Source: an uncultured virus (IMG/VR IMGVR_UViG_3300025101_000025)
Lineage: Duplodnaviria > Heunggongvirae > Uroviricota > Caudoviricetes > Kyanoviridae
Reading direction: 5' to 3' (one strand)
Length of the DNA stretch: 64,000 bases
Virus record (IMG/VR): IMGVR_UViG_3300025101_000025
Coordinates: 1-64,000 of that record
The notes beneath the pieces are model-generated. The model saw only the letters and a program-made list of their open reading frames with translations, was not told where the DNA came from and searched no databases. Positions 6 through 3,929 of the stretch are shown here, piece after piece (within the stretch, counting starts at the first letter, position 1; every line of letters starts with the position of its first letter). Position numbers and translations under genes: made by a program.

Positions 6-206
6 ATGACCAGAAAAGAATACGAATTAGTTTTCCAAGCATTAAAATCTTACAGATGCTACATGAGCAGAGAAGATGAAGCATTATCTGAAAAAATTCT
101 AGATGATCTATTTTATCCTAGTTTTGATAAACTATCAACTGATGATCTAGTAGCAGATGCAGAGGAAGCACTTAAAAATGAAGTTAAAAGTTTGAATTTT
201 AGATAA
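6..206 (+). CDS. Small hypothetical protein, cassette in repeat array
   Basis: 66-aa ORF; preceded by AAATT-ATG like other array members; its TAA is the first 3 nt of repeat copy 1. Confidence 0.75.
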   Translation: MTRKEYELVFQALKSYRCYMSREDEALSEKILDDLFYPSFDKLSTDDLVADAEEALKNEVKSLNFR

Positions 207-244
207 TTCAAACTGATACCTCTAAAATGTTCCTATAGTATAAG
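204..244 (+). repeat. 41-bp intergenic repeat, copy 1 (putative early promoter/cassette boundary)
   Basis: TAATTCAAACTGATACCTCTAAAATGTTCCTATAGTATAAG. Confidence 0.95.
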
Positions 245-256
245 ACAAACAAAATT

Positions 257-700
257 ATGACCACACTTGAAACAACTGATCTAAAAACAAGAGTTGCAGA
301 ATGGACTCAAACCTATGCAAATGCAATCACTCAAAATTATAGAGAGTATCATTTAAATATGCTCACTAGACAAGGCCACCCATATCCAGAGTATGCGAGG
401 GAGCAACTTGACGCTATCGAGAATGGAACAGCGAACCTAATGAAGTTCAAAGTTAAAACTGGTAAGAGATATTACAAAATTGTCCAGATGGAATTTGACA
501 CTTTCCAGAATCGCAATGAATACAGGGAAGGATCAGTTCATGCTTTTGTTGATCGCAATACTGGCGAAGTTTTCAAACCAGCATCATGGGCAGCACCAGC
601 AAAGCATGTAAGATATGATATGAGAATTATCAGAGAGAGAAATTTCTTACATGACCCCACTAATGTAACATGGGCAGGTGGTTATCTCTACATGAGATAA
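257..700 (+). CDS. Hypothetical phage protein
   Basis: 147-aa ORF between repeat copies 1 and 2; motif SVHAFVDRNTGEVFKPASWAAPAK resembles a phage family I recall but cannot name. Confidence 0.85.
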   Translation: MTTLETTDLKTRVAEWTQTYANAITQNYREYHLNMLTRQGHPYPEYAREQLDAIENGTANLMKFKVKTGKRYYKIVQMEFDTFQNRNEYREGSVHAFVDRNTGEVFKPASWAAPAKHVRYDMRIIRERNFLHDPTNVTWAGGYLYMR

Positions 701-737
701 TCACTAATTGATACCACTAAAATGTTCCTATAGTAAG
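698..737 (+). repeat. Intergenic repeat, copy 2
   Basis: TAATCACTAATTGATACCACTAAAATGTTCCTATAGTAAG. Confidence 0.9.
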
Positions 738-751
738 CAATCCAATTAATT

Positions 752-994
752 ATGAAACTCAAAAATATTCTAAACAGAAATTTTGACTCACTCACAAATG
801 ATGAAAAGAAATTCTATGACGATGTTCAAGAAAAATACTTACTAGGAGTATGCGATAAGTATAACATCATAACTGATGAATTAATATATATCGAATATGA
901 TTTTGAAGAGTTATCTGATAAAGGCATCGAAGAATGTGAAAAAAATAATTATACTGCATTATGTGTGGAAGCATTTGAAGAATTGACAAAATAA
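752..994 (+). CDS. Small acidic hypothetical protein
   Basis: 80-aa ORF bounded by repeat copies 2 and 3. Confidence 0.8.
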   Translation: MKLKNILNRNFDSLTNDEKKFYDDVQEKYLLGVCDKYNIITDELIYIEYDFEELSDKGIEECEKNNYTALCVEAFEELTK

Positions 995-1032
995 CTCAAA
1001 CTGATACCTCTAAACTGTTTCTATAGTATAAG
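992..1032 (+). repeat. Intergenic repeat, copy 3
   Basis: TAACTCAAACTGATACCTCTAAACTGTTTCTATAGTATAAG. Confidence 0.95.
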
Positions 1033-1046
1033 ATACAATTAAAATT

Positions 1047-1223
1047 ATGATTCAAAAATTCATCGAAGTCCCAAATACAAATATTAAAGAACCAGTTCTA
1101 AGACATGATTTTGCTGATGAACTATGCTATATGATAGCACAGGATTATGGATATGCCGAGATTGTTTGGTATGCTCTCAACGGTAAAAGAGTTGTTGAAG
1201 GTTTTTATTCTGATAAGGATTAA
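1047..1223 (+). CDS. Small hypothetical protein (58 aa, not in ORF track)
   Basis: Manual translation MIQKFIEVPNTNIKEPVLRHDFADELCYMIAQDYGYAEIVWYALNGKRVVEGFYSDKD; fills the gap between copies 3 and 4. Confidence 0.8.
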   Translation: MIQKFIEVPNTNIKEPVLRHDFADELCYMIAQDYGYAEIVWYALNGKRVVEGFYSDKD

Positions 1224-1264
1224 TAACTCAAACTGATACCTCTAAACTGTTCCTATAGTATAAG
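1224..1264 (+). repeat. Intergenic repeat, copy 4
   Basis: TAACTCAAACTGATACCTCTAAACTGTTCCTATAGTATAAG. Confidence 0.95.
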
Positions 1265-1277
1265 ATTAAACAAAATT

Positions 1278-1511
1278 ATGAACTCTACAGCAACTTACAT
1301 CGAACCAGTAAACAGAATCAAGCAAAGAATTTTATTTGATGATAACCTTAACAACATGGCATGCCTATGTTCAGATTGGTCTGATTTTCTCATTGAAATT
1401 TCAGAATGGGGAATCTACAAATTAGGAGGAGTTGATTTTGACACATTAACAACTTCTGATATTGAGAGACTCGATCAATTCATAAAAGGAGAGAATGGTT
1501 ACATCAGGTAA
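1278..1511 (+). CDS. Small hypothetical protein
   Basis: 77-aa ORF between copies 4 and 5. Confidence 0.8.
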   Translation: MNSTATYIEPVNRIKQRILFDDNLNNMACLCSDWSDFLIEISEWGIYKLGGVDFDTLTTSDIERLDQFIKGENGYIR

Positions 1512-1512
1512 T

Positions 1513-1553
1513 TAACTCAAACTGATACCTCTAAATTGTTCCTATAGTATAAG
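1513..1553 (+). repeat. Intergenic repeat, copy 5
   Basis: TAACTCAAACTGATACCTCTAAATTGTTCCTATAGTATAAG. Confidence 0.95.
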
Positions 1554-1572
1554 CAATCAATCAATTCACATC

Positions 1573-1902
1573 ATGAGAAAAATCGAAACCCAAATGAATC
1601 AAGCAATTAGAGGACAGAGAAACTGGGCAGGTTCTAACACCACAGTTTTTACTACTGATAATGGTCTTGAGTCTACAATCTATCTACATGGAAATCACAT
1701 TGCGACATATTTCCATGATGATCGCAAACTTCAAATTTTCGATGGCGGTTGGCAATCCAATACAACTAAGTCTAGACTCAATGCACTATTAGATGAATTT
1801 GACTACGGTTCTTTTATATTTCAAAAAAACTGGAACTGGTTTTTAGCAAGAAATTTCAACCATAATCACAAAGTTGATTTTTCTTCTGGAATGTTTATCT
1901 AA
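1573..1902 (+). CDS. Hypothetical phage protein
   Basis: 109-aa ORF after copy 5; motifs YLHGNHIA and DGGWQSNTTKSRLNALL. Confidence 0.85.
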   Translation: MRKIETQMNQAIRGQRNWAGSNTTVFTTDNGLESTIYLHGNHIATYFHDDRKLQIFDGGWQSNTTKSRLNALLDEFDYGSFIFQKNWNWFLARNFNHNHKVDFSSGMFI

Positions 1903-1909
1903 GGTTACT

Positions 1910-1950
1910 GGAAGTATTACGGATTAATTCTATAATACTTCCTTTTTATT
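1910..1950 (+). terminator. Rho-independent terminator
   Basis: GGAAGTATTA (1910-1919) / TAATACTTCC (1933-1942) stem followed by TTTTTATT. Confidence 0.75.
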
Positions 1951-2019
1951 TTCTCTCGTTAGTTATTAACGGGCCTCCGAGATTCTCTTCCTTACGAGAG
2001 GCGAAAGCGATTTTTTAAT

Positions 2020-2060
2020 TAACACTAACTGAAACCCCCAAATTGTTATTATTGTATAGG
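2020..2060 (+). repeat. Intergenic repeat, degenerate copy 6
   Basis: TAACACTAACTGAAACCCCCAAATTGTTATTATTGTATAGG; same spacing of TGANACC, AAANTGTT and TATWGT blocks. Confidence 0.75.
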
Positions 2061-2074
2061 ACACAATCAAAATT

Positions 2075-2242
2075 ATGAACACACAAAAAAACTTAGACAT
2101 TGTAAGAGATTTTTTTACAGACGAGCAATGGTTGGCAATTGAATATGCTCTCGGAGATTATCAGGATTATGGGGACGAGCAAGCAGAAATTTCATCTCAA
2201 ATTGAAGATAAGATTTACACACTTTTTAATCAGGTAAAATAA
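2075..2242 (+). CDS. Small acidic hypothetical protein (55 aa)
   Basis: Manual translation MNTQKNLDIVRDFFTDEQWLAIEYALGDYQDYG...; follows copy 6 with AAAATT-ATG. Confidence 0.75.
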   Translation: MNTQKNLDIVRDFFTDEQWLAIEYALGDYQDYGDEQAEISSQIEDKIYTLFNQVK

Positions 2243-2243
2243 C

Positions 2244-2390
2244 ATGAATTACAACGAAATTTGCAGGATTTATAACAACGTAGACAACAACGAGTTAGTA
2301 TCACAAACTGCATACGAATTTGAGATTTATGATGATTTTTATTATCAGTTATTTCACAGTTATTATGAAACAAATAAGGAGGTAAATTAA
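2244..2390 (+). CDS. Small hypothetical protein (48 aa)
   Basis: MNYNEICRIYNNVDNNEL...; starts 1 nt after upstream stop. Confidence 0.65.
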   Translation: MNYNEICRIYNNVDNNELVSQTAYEFEIYDDFYYQLFHSYYETNKEVN

Positions 2391-2560
2391 TGAACAATTT
2401 ATTACTAACTGATGAAGAATTAGACTACCTAGAGTTACTACTTCATAACCACGAATACGAAGAAAAAGATAGAAAATTAATCGACAAATTAGAGTTTAAA
2501 TTCTATCAACTTAAGTCTGACGATTACCAAAACAAAGTTACTACAATGGGGGGTAATTAG
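2390..2560 (+). CDS. Small hypothetical protein (56 aa)
   Basis: MNNLLLTDEELDYLELLL...; strong AAGGAGG SD and TAATG stop/start overlap. Confidence 0.75.
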   Translation: MNNLLLTDEELDYLELLLHNHEYEEKDRKLIDKLEFKFYQLKSDDYQNKVTTMGGN

Positions 2561-2561
2561 C

Positions 2562-2729
2562 ATGATTATTTCTATCACAAAAAGGATTAAATTACCCTCT
2601 GGAAAGTATAAAAAACGTGTGAAATATTCAACTGTAAAGTATCAAATAGAGAAGGTAAAACCAAGAAGATCGCATTACAAATTAAACAGTTTACATGCTG
2701 CTAAGTATCATTTAGTAAGAGAGAGTTAA
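2562..2729 (+). CDS. Small basic hypothetical protein (55 aa)
   Basis: MIISITKRIKLPSGKYKKRVKY...; G-rich SD-like run upstream, 1 nt after upstream stop. Confidence 0.65.
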   Translation: MIISITKRIKLPSGKYKKRVKYSTVKYQIEKVKPRRSHYKLNSLHAAKYHLVRES

Positions 2730-2737
2730 TCTGTTAG

Positions 2738-2850
2738 TTTTACACAATATAGAGGTAATTCTGTGGAAAACTTATTTAATTGTGGAAAAGAATGTATTTA
2801 AAAATATATTTAAGCGTTTTATTTCTCGATTTAATGTTAGTTTTTATAGT
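2738..2850. promoter_or_regulatory. DnaA-box-like cluster plus AT-rich tract
   Basis: TTTTACACA 2738-2746 (+), TGTGGAAAA 2762-2770 and 2781-2789 (= TTTTCCACA on -), then AT-rich 2790-2850; a fourth box TTTTCCACA at 3172-3180. Confidence 0.55.
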
Positions 2851-2865
2851 GATCTTAGCGAGCGT

Positions 2866-2895
2866 ATTATACCACGAACGCCCATAAATTGTAAA
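2866..2895 (-). promoter_or_regulatory. Leftward sigma70-type promoter
   Basis: Minus strand TTTACA-N18-TATAAT with extended TGn -10. Confidence 0.55.
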
Positions 2896-2933
2896 GGGCG
2901 GATAATACTTTTGTCAGAACTTACGCATAATTA

Positions 2934-2962
2934 TTGACAAGAATTGAGAGATAATTTATAAT
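2934..2962 (+). promoter_or_regulatory. Consensus sigma70 (early) promoter
   Basis: TTGACA-N17-TATAAT perfect consensus. Confidence 0.85.
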
Positions 2963-2978
2963 GGTTATATAACACTTA

Positions 2979-3161
2979 ATGGCTGCACAGTTTATGACAA
3001 TTTCCGCGTCTAATTTACAGCAAAAACAGTATCGAATTACGCTGAATTTGTCAGTTCAAAGTGACTTTAATCCGCACCAAATTAACTATGAAAAGTTATT
3101 CAAATTAGATGAGGATTTGGAAGCCCTAAGTGTAACAATTGAGGACTTAAATTATGAGTAG
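2979..3161 (+). CDS. Small hypothetical protein
   Basis: 60-aa ORF just downstream of the consensus promoter; start may be the second Met. Confidence 0.7.
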   Translation: MAAQFMTISASNLQQKQYRITLNLSVQSDFNPHQINYEKLFKLDEDLEALSVTIEDLNYE

Positions 3162-3189
3162 TTAGTGTTAGTTTTCCACAGTTGTTATG

Positions 3190-3230
3190 TAACATAATAT
3201 GAGACCTGTAAAGTGTTCTTATAGTGTAGG
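3190..3230 (+). repeat. Intergenic repeat, degenerate copy 7
   Basis: TAACATAATATGAGACCTGTAAAGTGTTCTTATAGTGTAGG; block spacing identical to copies 1-6. Confidence 0.7.
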
Positions 3231-3358
3231 GAGCAGAGATAGTGAAGAGGGAGACACCGCGTAACCGGTCAGCTGCAGCTTAGTCCCACTCTTGAAATGC
3301 GGAGCTCCGCCTCTAGTTAATTCCCAACCGACTAGATGTAAGTATCCCTACCACTCTT
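3223..3358 (+). ncRNA. Candidate structured non-coding RNA
   Basis: GC-rich, no ORF; closing stem GTAGGGA/TCCCTAC and several internal hairpins found by eye. Confidence 0.6.
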
Positions 3359-3514
3359 TTAACAGTCCGTTACGTGATATAGCAGTTATATGCGGGCGTT
3401 GTTGTTATCGGGGCGGGCGCGATGCCGTTTTAAAAAACCCTTAAGTCCCTAACCTACAGAGGTGACAAATCGATAGCTAAATATTAAACCATATTAAATT
3501 TTTTTTTCTTGGCC

Positions 3515-3625
3515 ATGGGAACACACTACGGATTCACAATAATTGTATGGGTTATAATTGGGTTAATAATATTTTCCAAGTTAGATAGTGGGGGCAAAAA
3601 GAAAAAGAAACGCAAAAACAAATAA
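3515..3625 (+). CDS. Single-TM microprotein with polybasic tail (36 aa)
   Basis: MGTHYGFTIIVWVIIGLIIFSKLDSGGKKKKKRKNK; followed by a terminator. Confidence 0.6.
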   Translation: MGTHYGFTIIVWVIIGLIIFSKLDSGGKKKKKRKNK

Positions 3626-3634
3626 AAAATTTCC

Positions 3635-3657
3635 GGGGGCTCAAAACCCCCTTTTTA
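3635..3657 (+). terminator. Rho-independent terminator
   Basis: GGGGG-CTCAAAA-CCCCC-TTTTT. Confidence 0.7.
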
Positions 3658-3692
3658 GTGTTTTCTAAATACTAATAACATGATTTAAACAC

Positions 3693-3929
3693 ATGAAAGA
3701 ATTTGACGATACAGTGTATCACATCTATGCAAAGGATAAATGTCTTTATCATAATTTAAAGGAAGAAGATTTTGAAGAGACATGGCAACTTCTAACCACT
3801 ATGGTTGGATTAATCAAGACAGATTATTCGGAGTCAGATCTATCATATATTAAGTTAGCACCGAAGGTCGGGTATGGTGGGCCAGGTAAGGTAATATACA
3901 CAGAACCAACTGGAGATGAGTCTTATTGA
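3693..3929 (+). CDS. Hypothetical protein
   Basis: 78-aa ORF; CTAAATA late-promoter-like motif at 3665-3671. Confidence 0.8.
   Translation: MKEFDDTVYHIYAKDKCLYHNLKEEDFEETWQLLTTMVGLIKTDYSESDLSYIKLAPKVGYGGPGKVIYTEPTGDESY

What the first reader, a model, noticed from the sequence alone, without database searches (positions are those of the whole stretch)
3223..3358. Candidate multi-stem ncRNA occupying the cargo slot of the last repeat copy
Seen: where other copies are followed by an ORF, copy 7 is followed by ~130 nt of GC-rich, ORF-free sequence that folds extensively by eye. P1 is GTAGGGA 3226-3232 / TCCCTAC 3345-3351, extendable with AGT/ACT. P2 is AAGAG-GG-GAC 3245-3255 / GTC-CC-CTCTT 3283-3293 and closes a three-way junction with hairpins ACCG-CGTAAC-CGGT and AGC-TGCA-GCT. 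Then come GCGG-AGCT-CCGC 3299-3310, TCTAGTT/GACTAGA 3312-3336 and a final T-run. Two loops (TGCA, AGCT) are self-complementary, as in kissing or dimerising RNAs. CCACTCTT occurs twice (3286-3293, 3351-3358), allowing alternative pairing. Inference: a phage structured RNA (decoy, regulator or replication primer). Caveat: a sigma70 start 7 nt after TATAGT would clip the 5' arm of P1, so it may instead be processed from the 2934 promoter transcript or act as ssDNA.
Basis: partly seen in the sequence, partly recalled or inferred. Interest (0 to 1): 0.8.

Follow-up and report, generated by a model that had tools for sequence, protein, structure and literature searches.

The report
New structured small RNA in cyanophages
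A 126-base gene-free stretch of a marine cyanophage belongs to a family of folded small RNAs that no catalogue searched here holds; related phage sequences keep its helices through matching mutations, but its job is unknown.

Summary
From this window alone they fold no better than shuffled sequence (z -0.56 and -1.1). Relatives settle the matter. Exact-word scans of viral and metagenome contigs gave 22 matching sequences, 20 of them distinct. All come from marine phage-like contigs and sit in at least seven gene contexts.

On a MAFFT alignment, 97.3% of cells pair and 18 of 33 pairs change on both sides. Shuffles gave 7.2 (0 of 500 reached 18) and slid controls gave 1-4.

P4 plus its loop is a perfect 10-nt palindrome in 20 of 20 distinct sequences, in four versions. 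This suggests pairing between two RNA molecules.

There is no Rfam match, no tRNA call, and no match in 50,697 phage isolate records or in cellular genomes.

Best reading: an autonomous, early-transcribed structured RNA gene carried as a cassette, acting in trans and possibly as a dimer. Its function is unknown. A separate, much more widespread conserved non-coding element lies just downstream (3363-3490).

The parts
3187..3225 (+). Seventh copy of the promoter-like repeat; its -10-like TATAGT (3220-3225) abuts P1
   Evidence: Repeat family D1, 7 copies. The simple sigma-70 scan does not flag this copy. In relatives a -10-like hexamer lies 6 nt before P1.
3226..3232 (+). P1, 5' arm (pairs with 3345-3351). 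G3233/C3234 may extend it by pairing with U3343/G3342.
   Evidence: 7 pairs; 5 change on both sides among relatives; 98.4% of cells paired. L238 has an entirely different but complementary helix. The G3233/C3234 extension appears in the MFE folds.
3235..3238 (+). P2, 5' arm (AGAG), pairs with 3289-3292 (CTCT)
   Evidence: AU and GC alternate at two of the four pairs (9 of 18 and 6 of 18 distinct sequences changed on both sides); 100% of cells paired.
3239..3248 (+). Nearly invariant 10-nt purine-rich bulge (ATAGTGAAGA)
   Evidence: Identical in 18 of 19 distinct sequences that cover it; one has a single change. That one was found with a scan that did not require the bulge.
3249..3255 (+). P2b, 5' arm (GGGA, bulged GA, C), pairs with 3283-3287
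   Evidence: 5 pairs that never vary, so they say nothing for or against pairing. Predicted in the MFE fold.
3256..3269 (+). P3 hairpin (ACCG / CGGT, loop CGTAAC)
   Evidence: Pairs change on both sides. A-U alternates with G-U at the first pair (5 of 18), which fits the + strand only. In L192 this arm is replaced by a branched arm about 70 nt longer.
3271..3280 (+). P4: 3-bp stem plus 4-nt loop, together a perfect 10-nt palindrome (AGCTGCAGCT)
   Evidence: Palindrome in 20 of 20 distinct sequences, four versions. As a hairpin -0.4 to 0 kcal/mol; as a self-duplex -13.7 to -17.7 kcal/mol.
3283..3292 (+). 3' arms of P2b (3283-3287) and P2 (3289-3292), with A3288 unpaired
3293..3298 (+). Conserved junction TGAAA(T) between P2 and P5
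   Evidence: Invariant or nearly invariant columns in A2
3299..3310 (+). P5 hairpin (GCGG / CCGC, loop AGCT)
   Evidence: 3 of 4 pairs change on both sides (GTCG/CGAC in L192 and L371). The loop is AGAT in 14 and AGCT in 6 of 20 distinct sequences.
3312..3336 (+). P6, optional hairpin (TCTAGTT / GACTAGA)
   Evidence: Missing from the 100-nt variants (L147, L276, L307, L316, L328, L343). Other stems stand in its place in L311, L317 and L348. 5 of 6 pairs change on both sides.
3337..3344 (+). Junction TGTAAGTA before the 3' arm of P1 (AAGYA kept)
3345..3351 (+). P1, 3' arm
   Evidence: the covariance model match spans 3226-3351 at 129.8 bits

Best explanation
Window 3226-3351 (+ strand) is a member of a family of structured small RNAs of marine T4-type cyanophages that none of the catalogues and collections searched here holds.

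Shown:
- Fold: a closing helix P1; a junction bearing P2, P5 and an optional P6; then P2 leading through an almost invariant 10-nt purine bulge into P2b and a tight three-way junction with hairpins P3 and P4. P2b itself never varies, so covariation does not test it.
- The helices are kept by compensatory changes. Peripheral arms come and go.
- The element sits in different slots of the variable early region in different phages, once per record.

Inferred:
- It is an autonomous RNA gene carried as a promoter-plus-cargo cassette.
- Host RNA polymerase transcribes it early from a sigma-70-type promoter, so that the transcript starts at the first base of P1.
- It acts in trans as a folded RNA rather than as a plain antisense.
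- Two molecules join through the always-palindromic P4 decamer.
- The dimer offers the invariant bulge to a partner, either a host or phage protein or a pyrimidine-rich RNA.

My odds: real structured RNA family, about 0.9; autonomous trans-acting gene, about 0.6; dimer through P4, about 0.4. The partner and the biological role are unknown. The single confidence figure (0.55) is for the statement taken as a whole up to and including trans action.
For: Covariation:
- MAFFT alignment of 20 sequences (18 distinct rows), 33 hand-drawn pairs. 97.3% of cells pair, against 88.3% in shuffles. 18 pairs change on both sides, against 7.2 in shuffles (0 of 500 shuffles reach either value). Sliding the partners by 1-3 columns gives 37-50% paired and 1-4 such pairs.
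- The model-fitted alignment of 22 sequences (20 distinct), with two extra pairs drawn across the P4 loop (35 pairs in all), gives 99.1% paired and 21 of 35 pairs changed on both sides.
- The first relative found (L147) differs from the window by 6 substitutions over 3226-3312. Four of them form two compensated pairs in P2. A fifth, in the 5' arm of P1, is matched by a change in the 3' arm of P1, which lies beyond that aligned stretch. The sixth lies in a loop.

Strand: G-U replaces A-U at the first P3 pair in 5 sequences. On the minus strand these would be C-A mismatches.

Conserved unpaired core: the bulge is identical in 18 of 19 distinct sequences. This includes lineages found by scans that did not require the bulge.

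P4: a palindrome in 20 of 20 distinct sequences, with loops TGCA, GCGC and CCGG. The decamer is unstable as a hairpin and stable as a self-duplex. It forms the intermolecular duplex in the cofold minimum of 6 of 6 natural variants tested.

Cassette behaviour:
- A near-identical relative (L003) carries 89 unrelated bases in place of 3182-3369.
- In L147's record the RNA lies upstream of the homologue (52% identity) of window ORF 1573-1902; in the window it lies 1.3 kb downstream of that ORF.
- At least six unrelated downstream ORFs, and four cases with no ORF before the next promoter-like repeat, a hairpin or the conserved downstream element.

Promoter: a -10-like hexamer ends 6 nt before P1 in 15 of 20 variants. 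In L313 the scan flags TTGCAA-17-TATATT.

Copy number: one per record in 6 of 6 records.

RNA libraries: contigs from four marine RNA-seq runs of four studies cover the element. One matches 3229-3383 with no difference and starts at about 3226. In two runs the only other cover within 2900-3700 is a stretch at 3596-3629 whose loose ends are runs of A or A-rich, which I take to be spurious.
Against: - No transcript ends were measured. Contigs from RNA libraries cannot exclude carried-over DNA, and in run X10 they run on through the promoter.
- In the window itself the -10-like box abuts P1. A start 7 nt downstream would clip the 5' arm of P1. Here the RNA may instead be part of a longer transcript running from the consensus promoter at 2934-2962 to the terminator at 3635-3651.
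- Folding energies are ordinary: mean z is -0.84 on the plus strand and -1.22 on the minus strand.
- The sample is small and its members are closely related, so shuffle controls overstate significance. I drew the structure from these same sequences.
- Most relatives were found with exact words that include the bulge or its neighbours. More distant members are missing, and the invariance is partly a product of how the sequences were found.
- Dimerisation rests only on the palindromes and on an in-silico cofold with no concentration term. A 10-bp palindrome could also be a DNA site.
- No partner is known. The window holds no complement to the bulge beyond chance: one other match with 3 mismatches, against 1.68 expected.
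- In 12 or more of the 20 variants an ORF starts 20-35 nt after P1 with the usual leader. A cis role is therefore not excluded.
Confidence: 0.55

Rival explanations
1. A cis-acting 5' leader: an aptamer-like or otherwise regulatory structure at the start of an early mRNA. It would control or stabilise the ORF that follows it, as a riboswitch or a 5' stabiliser does.
For: The element begins where transcription is predicted to start. In 12 or more of 20 variants it is followed, 20-35 nt later, by an ORF preceded by the same short leader that other cassettes of those phages carry. It has the aptamer-like look of variable stems around invariant junction and bulge nucleotides.
Against: The downstream ORFs belong to at least six unrelated families. 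In four contexts (the window, L309, L328, L314) no ORF follows before the next promoter-like repeat, a hairpin, or the conserved downstream element. No Rfam riboswitch model matches at E up to 10.
Confidence: 0.15
2. A self-cleaving ribozyme or RNA-processing signal that defines transcript ends inside the early polycistronic region.
For: Its size (100-170 nt), multi-helix junction, invariant unpaired nucleotides with freely varying stems, and residence in phage DNA are typical of the small self-cleaving classes (general knowledge). One RNA-library contig starts at about the first base of P1.
Against: No match to any ribozyme family in Rfam 15 at E up to 10, in the window or in 10 relatives' loci. 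RNA-library contigs cross the whole element without a break in 2 of the 4 runs laid (X1 and X2); in X4 and X10 they cover only part of it, and contigs are poor evidence on this point either way. The predicted start at P1 is explained more simply by the promoter spacing.
Confidence: 0.08
3. A DNA-level or single-stranded-DNA element: the palindromes are protein-binding sites, or the fold forms in DNA during replication.
For: P4 is always a 10-bp palindrome, and P5 is a 12-bp palindrome in 6 of 20 distinct sequences. In the window the element lies beside a conserved non-coding element that has iteron-like repeats.
Against: Compensation is found in five further helices that are not palindromes, and G-T wobble occurs on one strand only. 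Double-stranded DNA sites do not explain this. The element is not linked to the downstream conserved element: 0 of 99 loci carrying that element have the RNA, and 0 of 5 other RNA-bearing records have the 19-mer.
Confidence: 0.05
4. A short protein-coding gene on the minus strand.
For: One minus-strand frame is free of stops in 13 of 20 variants. ORFs of 39 and 44 aa were listed across the element in L147 and L276.
Against: Every minus-strand frame has stops in the window and in 6 other variants. Length differences among variants are 20, 21, 23, 26, 66 and 69 nt, mostly not multiples of three. The listed starts differ (ATG in L147, GTG in L276). The antisense of a purine-rich RNA is poor in stop codons by composition. 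The substitutions are pairwise compensatory.
Confidence: 0.03
5. No function: a G+C-rich spacer whose stems arise by chance.
For: The window's folding energy is within the range of shuffled sequence.
Against: The covariation statistics and slid controls. A conserved core is kept across phages whose flanking proteins are only about 52% identical. P1 is kept as a helix with an entirely different sequence in L238.
Confidence: 0.02

Closest known systems
Structured RNA motifs of cyanophages in Rfam (manA, wcaG, PhotoRC-I/II, glnA/glutamine riboswitch, psbNH)
   Same: Conserved multi-helix RNAs found in marine cyanophage DNA by comparative analysis, supported by covariation and mostly without a tested function. 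I saw that such motifs are reported in cyanophages in passages of PMC9964418.
   Different: None of them, nor any other of the 4227 Rfam 15 models, matches. There are 0 gathering-score hits in the 64-kb window. Nothing lies over the element at E up to 10 in the window or in 10 relatives' loci. As I recall, those motifs are tied to particular downstream genes; this one is not.
phi29 prohead (packaging) RNA, pRNA
   Same: (Recalled.) A phage-encoded RNA of about 120 nt with paired 5' and 3' ends and a three-way junction. It multimerises by base pairing between loops of different molecules, and that pairing is kept by covariation among related phages.
   Different: pRNA pairs two different loops to build a ring on the portal of phi29-like podoviruses. 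Here one self-complementary decamer would give a homodimer. The hosts are T4-type myoviruses, which as far as I recall package DNA without an RNA. No Rfam model matched at all. Multimerisation here is inferred, not shown.
Palindromic dimerisation hairpins (retroviral DIS-type kissing loops)
   Same: A hairpin whose loop is self-complementary, and whose loop sequence may change only to another palindrome (recalled for HIV-1 subtypes). Here the loops are TGCA, GCGC and CCGG.
   Different: Here the loop has only 4 nt on a 3-bp stem. An extended 10-bp duplex is therefore more plausible than a kissing complex. The biology is unrelated.
PeSL cassettes (promoter-early stem-loop modules) of T4-type phages
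   Same: Repeated early-promoter modules flank small variable cargo in hyperplastic regions and mediate shuffling (passages of PMC4122927; search listing of PMC2839356). The window has 7 such promoter-like repeats, and the RNA changes slot between phages.
   Different: Described PeSL cargo is ORFs; here the cargo is an RNA gene. The passages of PMC4122927 that I saw do not mention cyanophages (0 occurrences of the word).
T4 small stable RNAs C and D
   Same: (Recalled, not checked.) Small stable RNAs of about 120-140 nt, of unknown function, encoded by a T4-type phage.
   Different: They lie in the tRNA cluster and are processed together with tRNAs. The window has no tRNA gene.
Candidate structured RNAs from IMG/VR (DNAVirus_N catalogue, PMC10690425)
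   Same: 8495 unnamed candidates were predicted from the same collection by clustering of intergenic regions and covariation (passages seen). This family might be among them.
   Different: This could not be checked. The two large supplementary files with the alignments could not be read, a third file lay beyond the search's fetch limit, and the files that were searched hold neither core word.

Membership tests
Any Rfam 15 family (4227 models, including riboswitches, ribozymes, pRNA, Y RNA, 6S, cyanobacterial Yfr RNAs and cyanophage motifs) | Covariance-model score at or above the family's gathering score | tested here: not met
   0 matches at gathering score in window 1-64000. At E up to 10, window 2900-3700 gives only a snoRNA-model match at 3425-3547, outside the element. 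Ten relatives' loci give four weak matches, none over the element.
tRNA / tmRNA | Cloverleaf with anticodon arm and T arm (ARAGORN call) | tested here: not met
   0 genes in the whole window. P5 has 4 bp and a 4-nt loop, and P6 is optional.
Riboswitch / cis-regulatory leader | Consistent association with functionally related downstream genes | tested here: not met
   At least six unrelated downstream ORF families and four contexts without a following ORF.
Riboswitch / cis-regulatory leader | An expression platform: a conserved alternative pairing with a terminator or with the ribosome-binding site | tested here: inconclusive
   No conserved alternative pairing seen by eye. A T-rich run follows P1 in many variants, but it resembles the ordinary leader of other cassettes. 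I made no formal search for competing structures.
Riboswitch / cis-regulatory leader | Ligand binding | not testable with these tools
   Needs in-line probing or a binding assay.
Self-cleaving ribozymes | Site-specific self-scission | not testable with these tools
   Needs an in-vitro cleavage assay. No sequence or structure match to known classes in Rfam.
Autonomous bacterial/phage small RNA gene | Own promoter placed so that the transcript starts at the structure | tested here: met
   A -10-like hexamer ends 6 nt before P1 in 15 of 20 variants; TTGCAA-17-TATATT is flagged in L313. Not met in the window's own lineage (hexamer abuts P1), nor in L309 and L238.
Autonomous bacterial/phage small RNA gene | Defined 3' end (intrinsic terminator) | tested here: inconclusive
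   A T-run starts 3-6 nt after P1 in many variants. A separate hairpin follows in L328 and L314. Nothing follows in L276. The scan finds no terminator at the element in the window.
Autonomous bacterial/phage small RNA gene | A discrete transcript is detected | tested here: inconclusive
   Contigs from four RNA libraries cover the element. Contigs show neither ends nor strand, and DNA carry-over is not excluded.
phi29-type pRNA | Intermolecular loop-loop complementarity between two different loops, and a gene located next to the packaging genes of a phi29-like phage | tested here: not met
   There is one self-complementary decamer instead of two complementary loops. The context is the early region of a T4-type cyanophage. 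No Rfam match.

The most novel reading that the evidence does not exclude
The RNA is a homodimeric, aptamer-like sponge made early in infection. Two molecules zip together through the palindromic P4 decamer. The paired invariant purine bulges then form a pocket that captures a host defence component, either a signalling nucleotide or an RNA-binding defence protein. That would be an RNA-only counter-defence factor, with no known protein or RNA relative. A milder version is that it is the founding member of a new class of self-dimerising structured RNAs, or of a new ribozyme class.
Probability: 0.07. Interest if true: 0.9.

Novelty: new variant of a known kind. Interest (0 to 1): 0.62.

Why it matters
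T4-type cyanophages are among the most abundant viruses of the ocean. Their early regions are treated as arrays of small orphan ORFs. This result shows that one of the shuffled cassettes carries an RNA gene instead. The RNA has a well-supported fold and an invariant unpaired core. It also has a helix that changes only from one palindrome to another, which is a rare and directly testable sign of RNA-RNA pairing between molecules.

The work supplies a covariance model and a set of natural variants (100 to 169 nt; three kinds of palindromic loop). These make simple bench tests possible without a cultured phage.

The family has no match in Rfam 15, in 50,697 deposited phage records or in cellular genomes. 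Routine annotation therefore misses it.

Tried and rejected
- Rfam at gathering score on the whole window and at E up to 10 on 2900-3700 found nothing relevant. The same holds for 10 relatives' loci and 10 loci of the neighbouring element.
- ARAGORN found no tRNA or tmRNA gene.
- Single-sequence folding z-scores did not tell this real family from shuffles. They are a poor test here.
- blastn of window 2900-3700 against phage isolates hit only Bellamy, and only over the neighbouring element. blastn with the L313 RNA found no match. The covariance model found nothing in 5 isolate genomes.
Only 3 (from three contigs) showed similarity beyond the word by blastn.
- The 17-mer scan of 185,579 species' genomes gave 29 stretches, none with the 3' core downstream, so all are taken as chance.
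- The metagenome scan gave 59 stretches. Twenty match the model and 39 do not.
- Of the new contigs from the last two viral scans, L366 and 13 of the 14 new loci have no credible match.
- A search for a target complementary to the bulge in the window gave nothing beyond chance.
- A loop-loop pairing between P3 and P6, seen by eye, was dropped because it does not covary.
- For the neighbouring 19-mer element: RNAalifold on a MAFFT alignment of 111 sequences found only an invariant 4-bp hairpin. An alignment-free test of a hairpin around CAGT was weak (5.37 against 5.10 +/- 0.10; the best of 200 permutations, 5.49, exceeded the observed value). Mean z was -0.63 on the plus strand and -0.04 on the minus strand.
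- Literature: full-text searches for the core words of both elements found nothing relevant. The big supplement files of PMC10690425 could not be searched.
- Parts of 2900-3700 without cover in the RNA-library contigs are not interpreted.
Full report
**Setting.** The window is the first 64 kb of a 72.7-kb IMG/VR virus record, estimated 35% complete. Its gene order around the finding matches Synechococcus phage Bellamy and other T4-type cyanomyoviruses. A long run of small early ORFs comes first. After it come a conserved 70-80-aa gene, a gene of about 256-294 aa (cluster 'GC 102' in the S-SM2 annotation) and the baseplate wedge genes. Seven copies of a promoter-like repeat precede the small ORFs. 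The last copy is at 3187-3248.

**The observation.** The stretch has 52% G+C against 34% for the window. No ORF lies inside it.

Taken alone, however, it is not better than chance. For 3215-3365, z = -0.56 and 57 of 200 shuffles fold as well. For the exact 3226-3351, z = -1.1. The opposite strand is no different. Rfam gives nothing and ARAGORN gives nothing.

**First look at relatives.** Loci anchored on the downstream protein showed that two contigs share the stretch at about 100% identity. A third close relative, L003, is 87.5% identical before 3181 and 99% identical after 3370. It carries 89 unrelated bases in place of 3182-3369. At that stage the stretch looked like a lineage-specific filler.

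**The turning point.** An exact scan with a 27-mer from P3-P4 found a copy in a different phage contig (L147), in another gene context. Over 3226-3312 it differs from the window by six substitutions:
- A3235G with T3292C, and A3237G with T3290C. Together these make two compensated pairs.
- G3230A in the 5' arm of P1. It is answered by C-to-T in the 3' arm (GTAGGGA/TCCCTAC becomes GTAGAGA/TCTCTAC).
- C3305A, which lies in the P5 loop.

The hairpin 3312-3336 is simply absent from L147. This also shows that the 3' strand CTCT pairs with AGAG at 3235-3238.

**Collecting the family.** Further exact-word scans were run as follows:
- a 14-mer and a 17-mer of the core in viral contigs;
- a gapped pattern in metagenome contigs;
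- two patterns that avoid the bulge.

Together with the window, these gave 22 sequences that match the covariance model at 58-142 bits; the lowest score belongs to L393, which is cut at its 5' end. Five duplicate stretches match as well. Twenty of the 22 sequences are distinct.

Most other pattern hits were chance:
- 39 of the 59 metagenome stretches do not match the model;
- 0 of 29 stretches from cellular genomes carry the 3' core;
- only 3 of the 120 14-mer stretches, from three contigs, show similarity beyond the word.

All true members come from marine viral or marine metagenome contigs. None of 50,697 deposited phage records matches by blastn. None of five isolate genomes matches the model.

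**Structure.** On a MAFFT alignment (A2) I drew 33 pairs: P1, P2, P2b, P3, P4, P5 and P6.
- 97.3% of cells pair, against 88.3% in shuffles.
- 18 pairs change on both sides, against 7.2 in shuffles. None of 500 shuffles reaches either value.
- Sliding the 3' partners by one to three columns drops pairing to 37-50% and the double changes to 1-4 pairs.

P1 is GTAGGGA, GTAGAGA or GTAGAGG with the matching 3' arm. In L238 it is a completely different complementary sequence. P2 alternates AGAG/CTCT, GGGG/CCCC and AGGG/CCCT. P3, P5 and P6 each exist in several compensated versions. Five G-U pairs at the first P3 position fit the + strand only.

Caveats:
- I drew the structure from these same sequences.
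- The sample is small and closely related.
- P2b never varies, so covariation says nothing about it.
- The model-fitted alignment A3 (99.1% paired, 21 of 35 pairs) leans towards the model by construction.

Peripheral parts vary as in other functional RNAs. P6 is absent from the 100-nt forms. A 70-nt branched arm replaces P3 in L192. A long insertion stands in for P6 in L312.

**Conserved unpaired core.** Between P2 and P2b lies a 10-nt bulge, ATAGTGAAGA, at 3239-3248. It is identical in 18 of the 19 distinct sequences that cover it and has one change in the other. Because most scans required this word, I checked the three scans that did not. They reached five lineages that cover the bulge. Four have the identical bulge and one has a single change. 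A sixth lineage, L393, is cut before the bulge. The junction TGAAA and the AAGYA before the 3' arm of P1 are also kept.

**The palindrome.** P4 is a 3-bp stem with a 4-nt loop. The ten bases together are a perfect palindrome in 20 of 20 distinct sequences, in four versions: AGCTGCAGCT, AGATGCATCT, AGTGCGCACT and AGACCGGTCT. The loop has been replaced wholesale twice (TGCA to GCGC, and TGCA to CCGG) and both times by another self-complementary word.

A random tetranucleotide is self-complementary 1 time in 16. A loop cannot pair with itself within one hairpin, so this points to pairing between two molecules or to a symmetric DNA site. ViennaRNA gives the decamer -0.4 to 0 kcal/mol as a hairpin and -13.7 to -17.7 kcal/mol as a self-duplex. 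The cofold minimum of six of six natural variants uses it as a 10-bp intermolecular helix. The P5 loop is a palindrome (AGCT) in only 6 of 20, so it is not under the same constraint.

**Gene or leader?** In 15 of 20 variants a -10-like hexamer (TATATT, TATTGT, TATTAT or TATAAT) ends exactly six bases before the first G of P1. In L313 the promoter scan flags TTGCAA-17-TATATT. The transcript should therefore begin at P1.

What follows P1 differs between variants:
- Six unrelated ORF families follow, each 20-35 nt after P1 and behind a leader like that of other cassettes.
- In L328 and L314 a hairpin follows.
- In L309 the next promoter-like repeat follows.
- In the window and L343 the conserved element described below follows.

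In L147's record the RNA lies before the homologue (52% identity) of window ORF 1573-1902. In the window it lies 1.3 kb after that ORF. Each of six records holds one copy. This is the behaviour of cargo in the promoter cassettes described for T4-type phages (PeSLs; passages of PMC4122927). It argues for an autonomous RNA gene rather than a regulator of one gene.

In the window's own lineage the hexamer TATAGT abuts P1, six bases closer than elsewhere. A perfect consensus promoter at 2934-2962 and a terminator at 3635-3651 could instead give one longer transcript that contains the element.

**Expression.** Contigs assembled from four marine RNA-seq runs of four studies cover the element.
- X1 holds 3229-3383 without a difference, in a contig that starts at about 3226.
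- X2 holds 3208-3360.
- X4 and X10 hold other variants of the family.
- In X1 and X2 the only other cover within 2900-3700 is a stretch at 3596-3629. Its loose ends are runs of A or A-rich, so I take it to be spurious.

This fits an abundant RNA. But contigs give neither ends nor strand, DNA carry-over is possible, and X10 contigs continue through the promoter.

**Rivals.**
- A cis leader or riboswitch (0.15) is weakened by the unrelated or absent downstream genes.
- A ribozyme (0.08) cannot be tested here.
- A DNA or ssDNA element (0.05) does not explain one-strand wobble pairs or the compensation in helices that are not palindromes.
- A minus-strand ORF (0.03) is broken in 7 of 20 variants, including the window, and does not tolerate the observed indels.
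- Chance (0.02) is contradicted.

**Comparison with what is known.** The element is not a member of any Rfam 15 family. In kind it resembles the orphan structured RNAs of cyanophages. In its possible mode of assembly it resembles phi29 pRNA and retroviral dimerisation hairpins; both of those comparisons are recalled, not tested. Whether it is among the 8495 unnamed IMG/VR candidates of PMC10690425 could not be checked. Full-text searches for its core words found nothing relevant.

**Next to the finding.** The stretch 3363-3490 is a different element and is much more widespread.
- The 19-mer, or a stretch containing it, matches in Bellamy, S-SM2, SynMITS9220M01, S-SCSM1 and P-TIM68. I confirmed the exact word in four of these five; I did not fetch SynMITS9220M01.
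- It occurs with at most one mismatch in 15 of 19 loci chosen by the neighbouring protein alone.
- Among the isolates inspected it is unannotated in four (Bellamy, S-SM2, SynMITS9220M01, S-SCSM1) and lies under an ORF call in P-TIM68. It sits at the same place, before the gene block that leads to the baseplate genes.
- It shows only a weak fold signal and has no Rfam match.
- It is independent of the RNA family.

**Verdict.** The family appears in none of the catalogues and collections searched here. Its function is open, and the palindromic P4 gives a concrete hypothesis to test.

Noticed in passing
window 3363-3490 (19-mer at 3448-3466): A widely conserved, syntenic non-coding element. One to four tandem modules ending in CAGT come first, then a TTGTTTATA-like box, a G+C-rich block ending GCGTTG or GCGATG (often followed by a C-run), an A-run, and the invariant 19-mer CCTAACCTACAGAGGTGAC. 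It, or a stretch containing it, matches in 5 isolate phages. It occurs with at most 1 mismatch in 15 of 19 protein-anchored loci. In the isolates inspected it lies before the gp104-like gene and the baseplate block. There is no Rfam hit and only a weak fold signal. It could be an RNA leader or a DNA site (an origin or an operator). As I recall, the 19-mer contains GAGGTGA, complementary to the 3' end of 16S rRNA.
   Followed up: partly
window 201-3248: Seven copies of a 62-nt promoter-like repeat (63-82% identical to the reference copy), each before a small ORF except the last. They look like the PeSL-type shuffling cassettes of T4-type phages. The sigma-70 scan did not flag copy 7, the only copy that lay within the region scanned.
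   Followed up: partly
window 3515-3625 and 3635-3651: A 36-aa ORF counted from its ATG (hydrophobic stretch, then a Lys-rich tail) and a clear terminator are inserted between the conserved element and the gp104-like gene. Bellamy has neither at this place.
   Followed up: no
L147 1-1227 and the related loci L311, L313, L316: In these phages each early ORF is preceded by a C-run (ACCCCC), mostly 3-12 nt before the ATG. This may be a lineage-specific translation-start signal.
   Followed up: no
L192 414-483; L312 about 160-225: Large lineage-specific insertions inside the RNA. In L192 a branched arm of about 70 nt replaces P3. In L312 a structure of about 65 nt stands in place of P6.
   Followed up: no
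L003 377-465 (replaces window 3182-3369): In a near-identical relative the RNA cassette is replaced by extra CAGT-ending modules of the downstream element. The two elements therefore compete for the same spot upstream of the 19-mer.
   Followed up: partly
window 3226-3351, minus strand, and relatives: One minus-strand frame is free of stops in 13 of 20 variants. I take this to be a by-product of the pyrimidine-rich antisense strand. The frame is closed in the window.
   Followed up: yes
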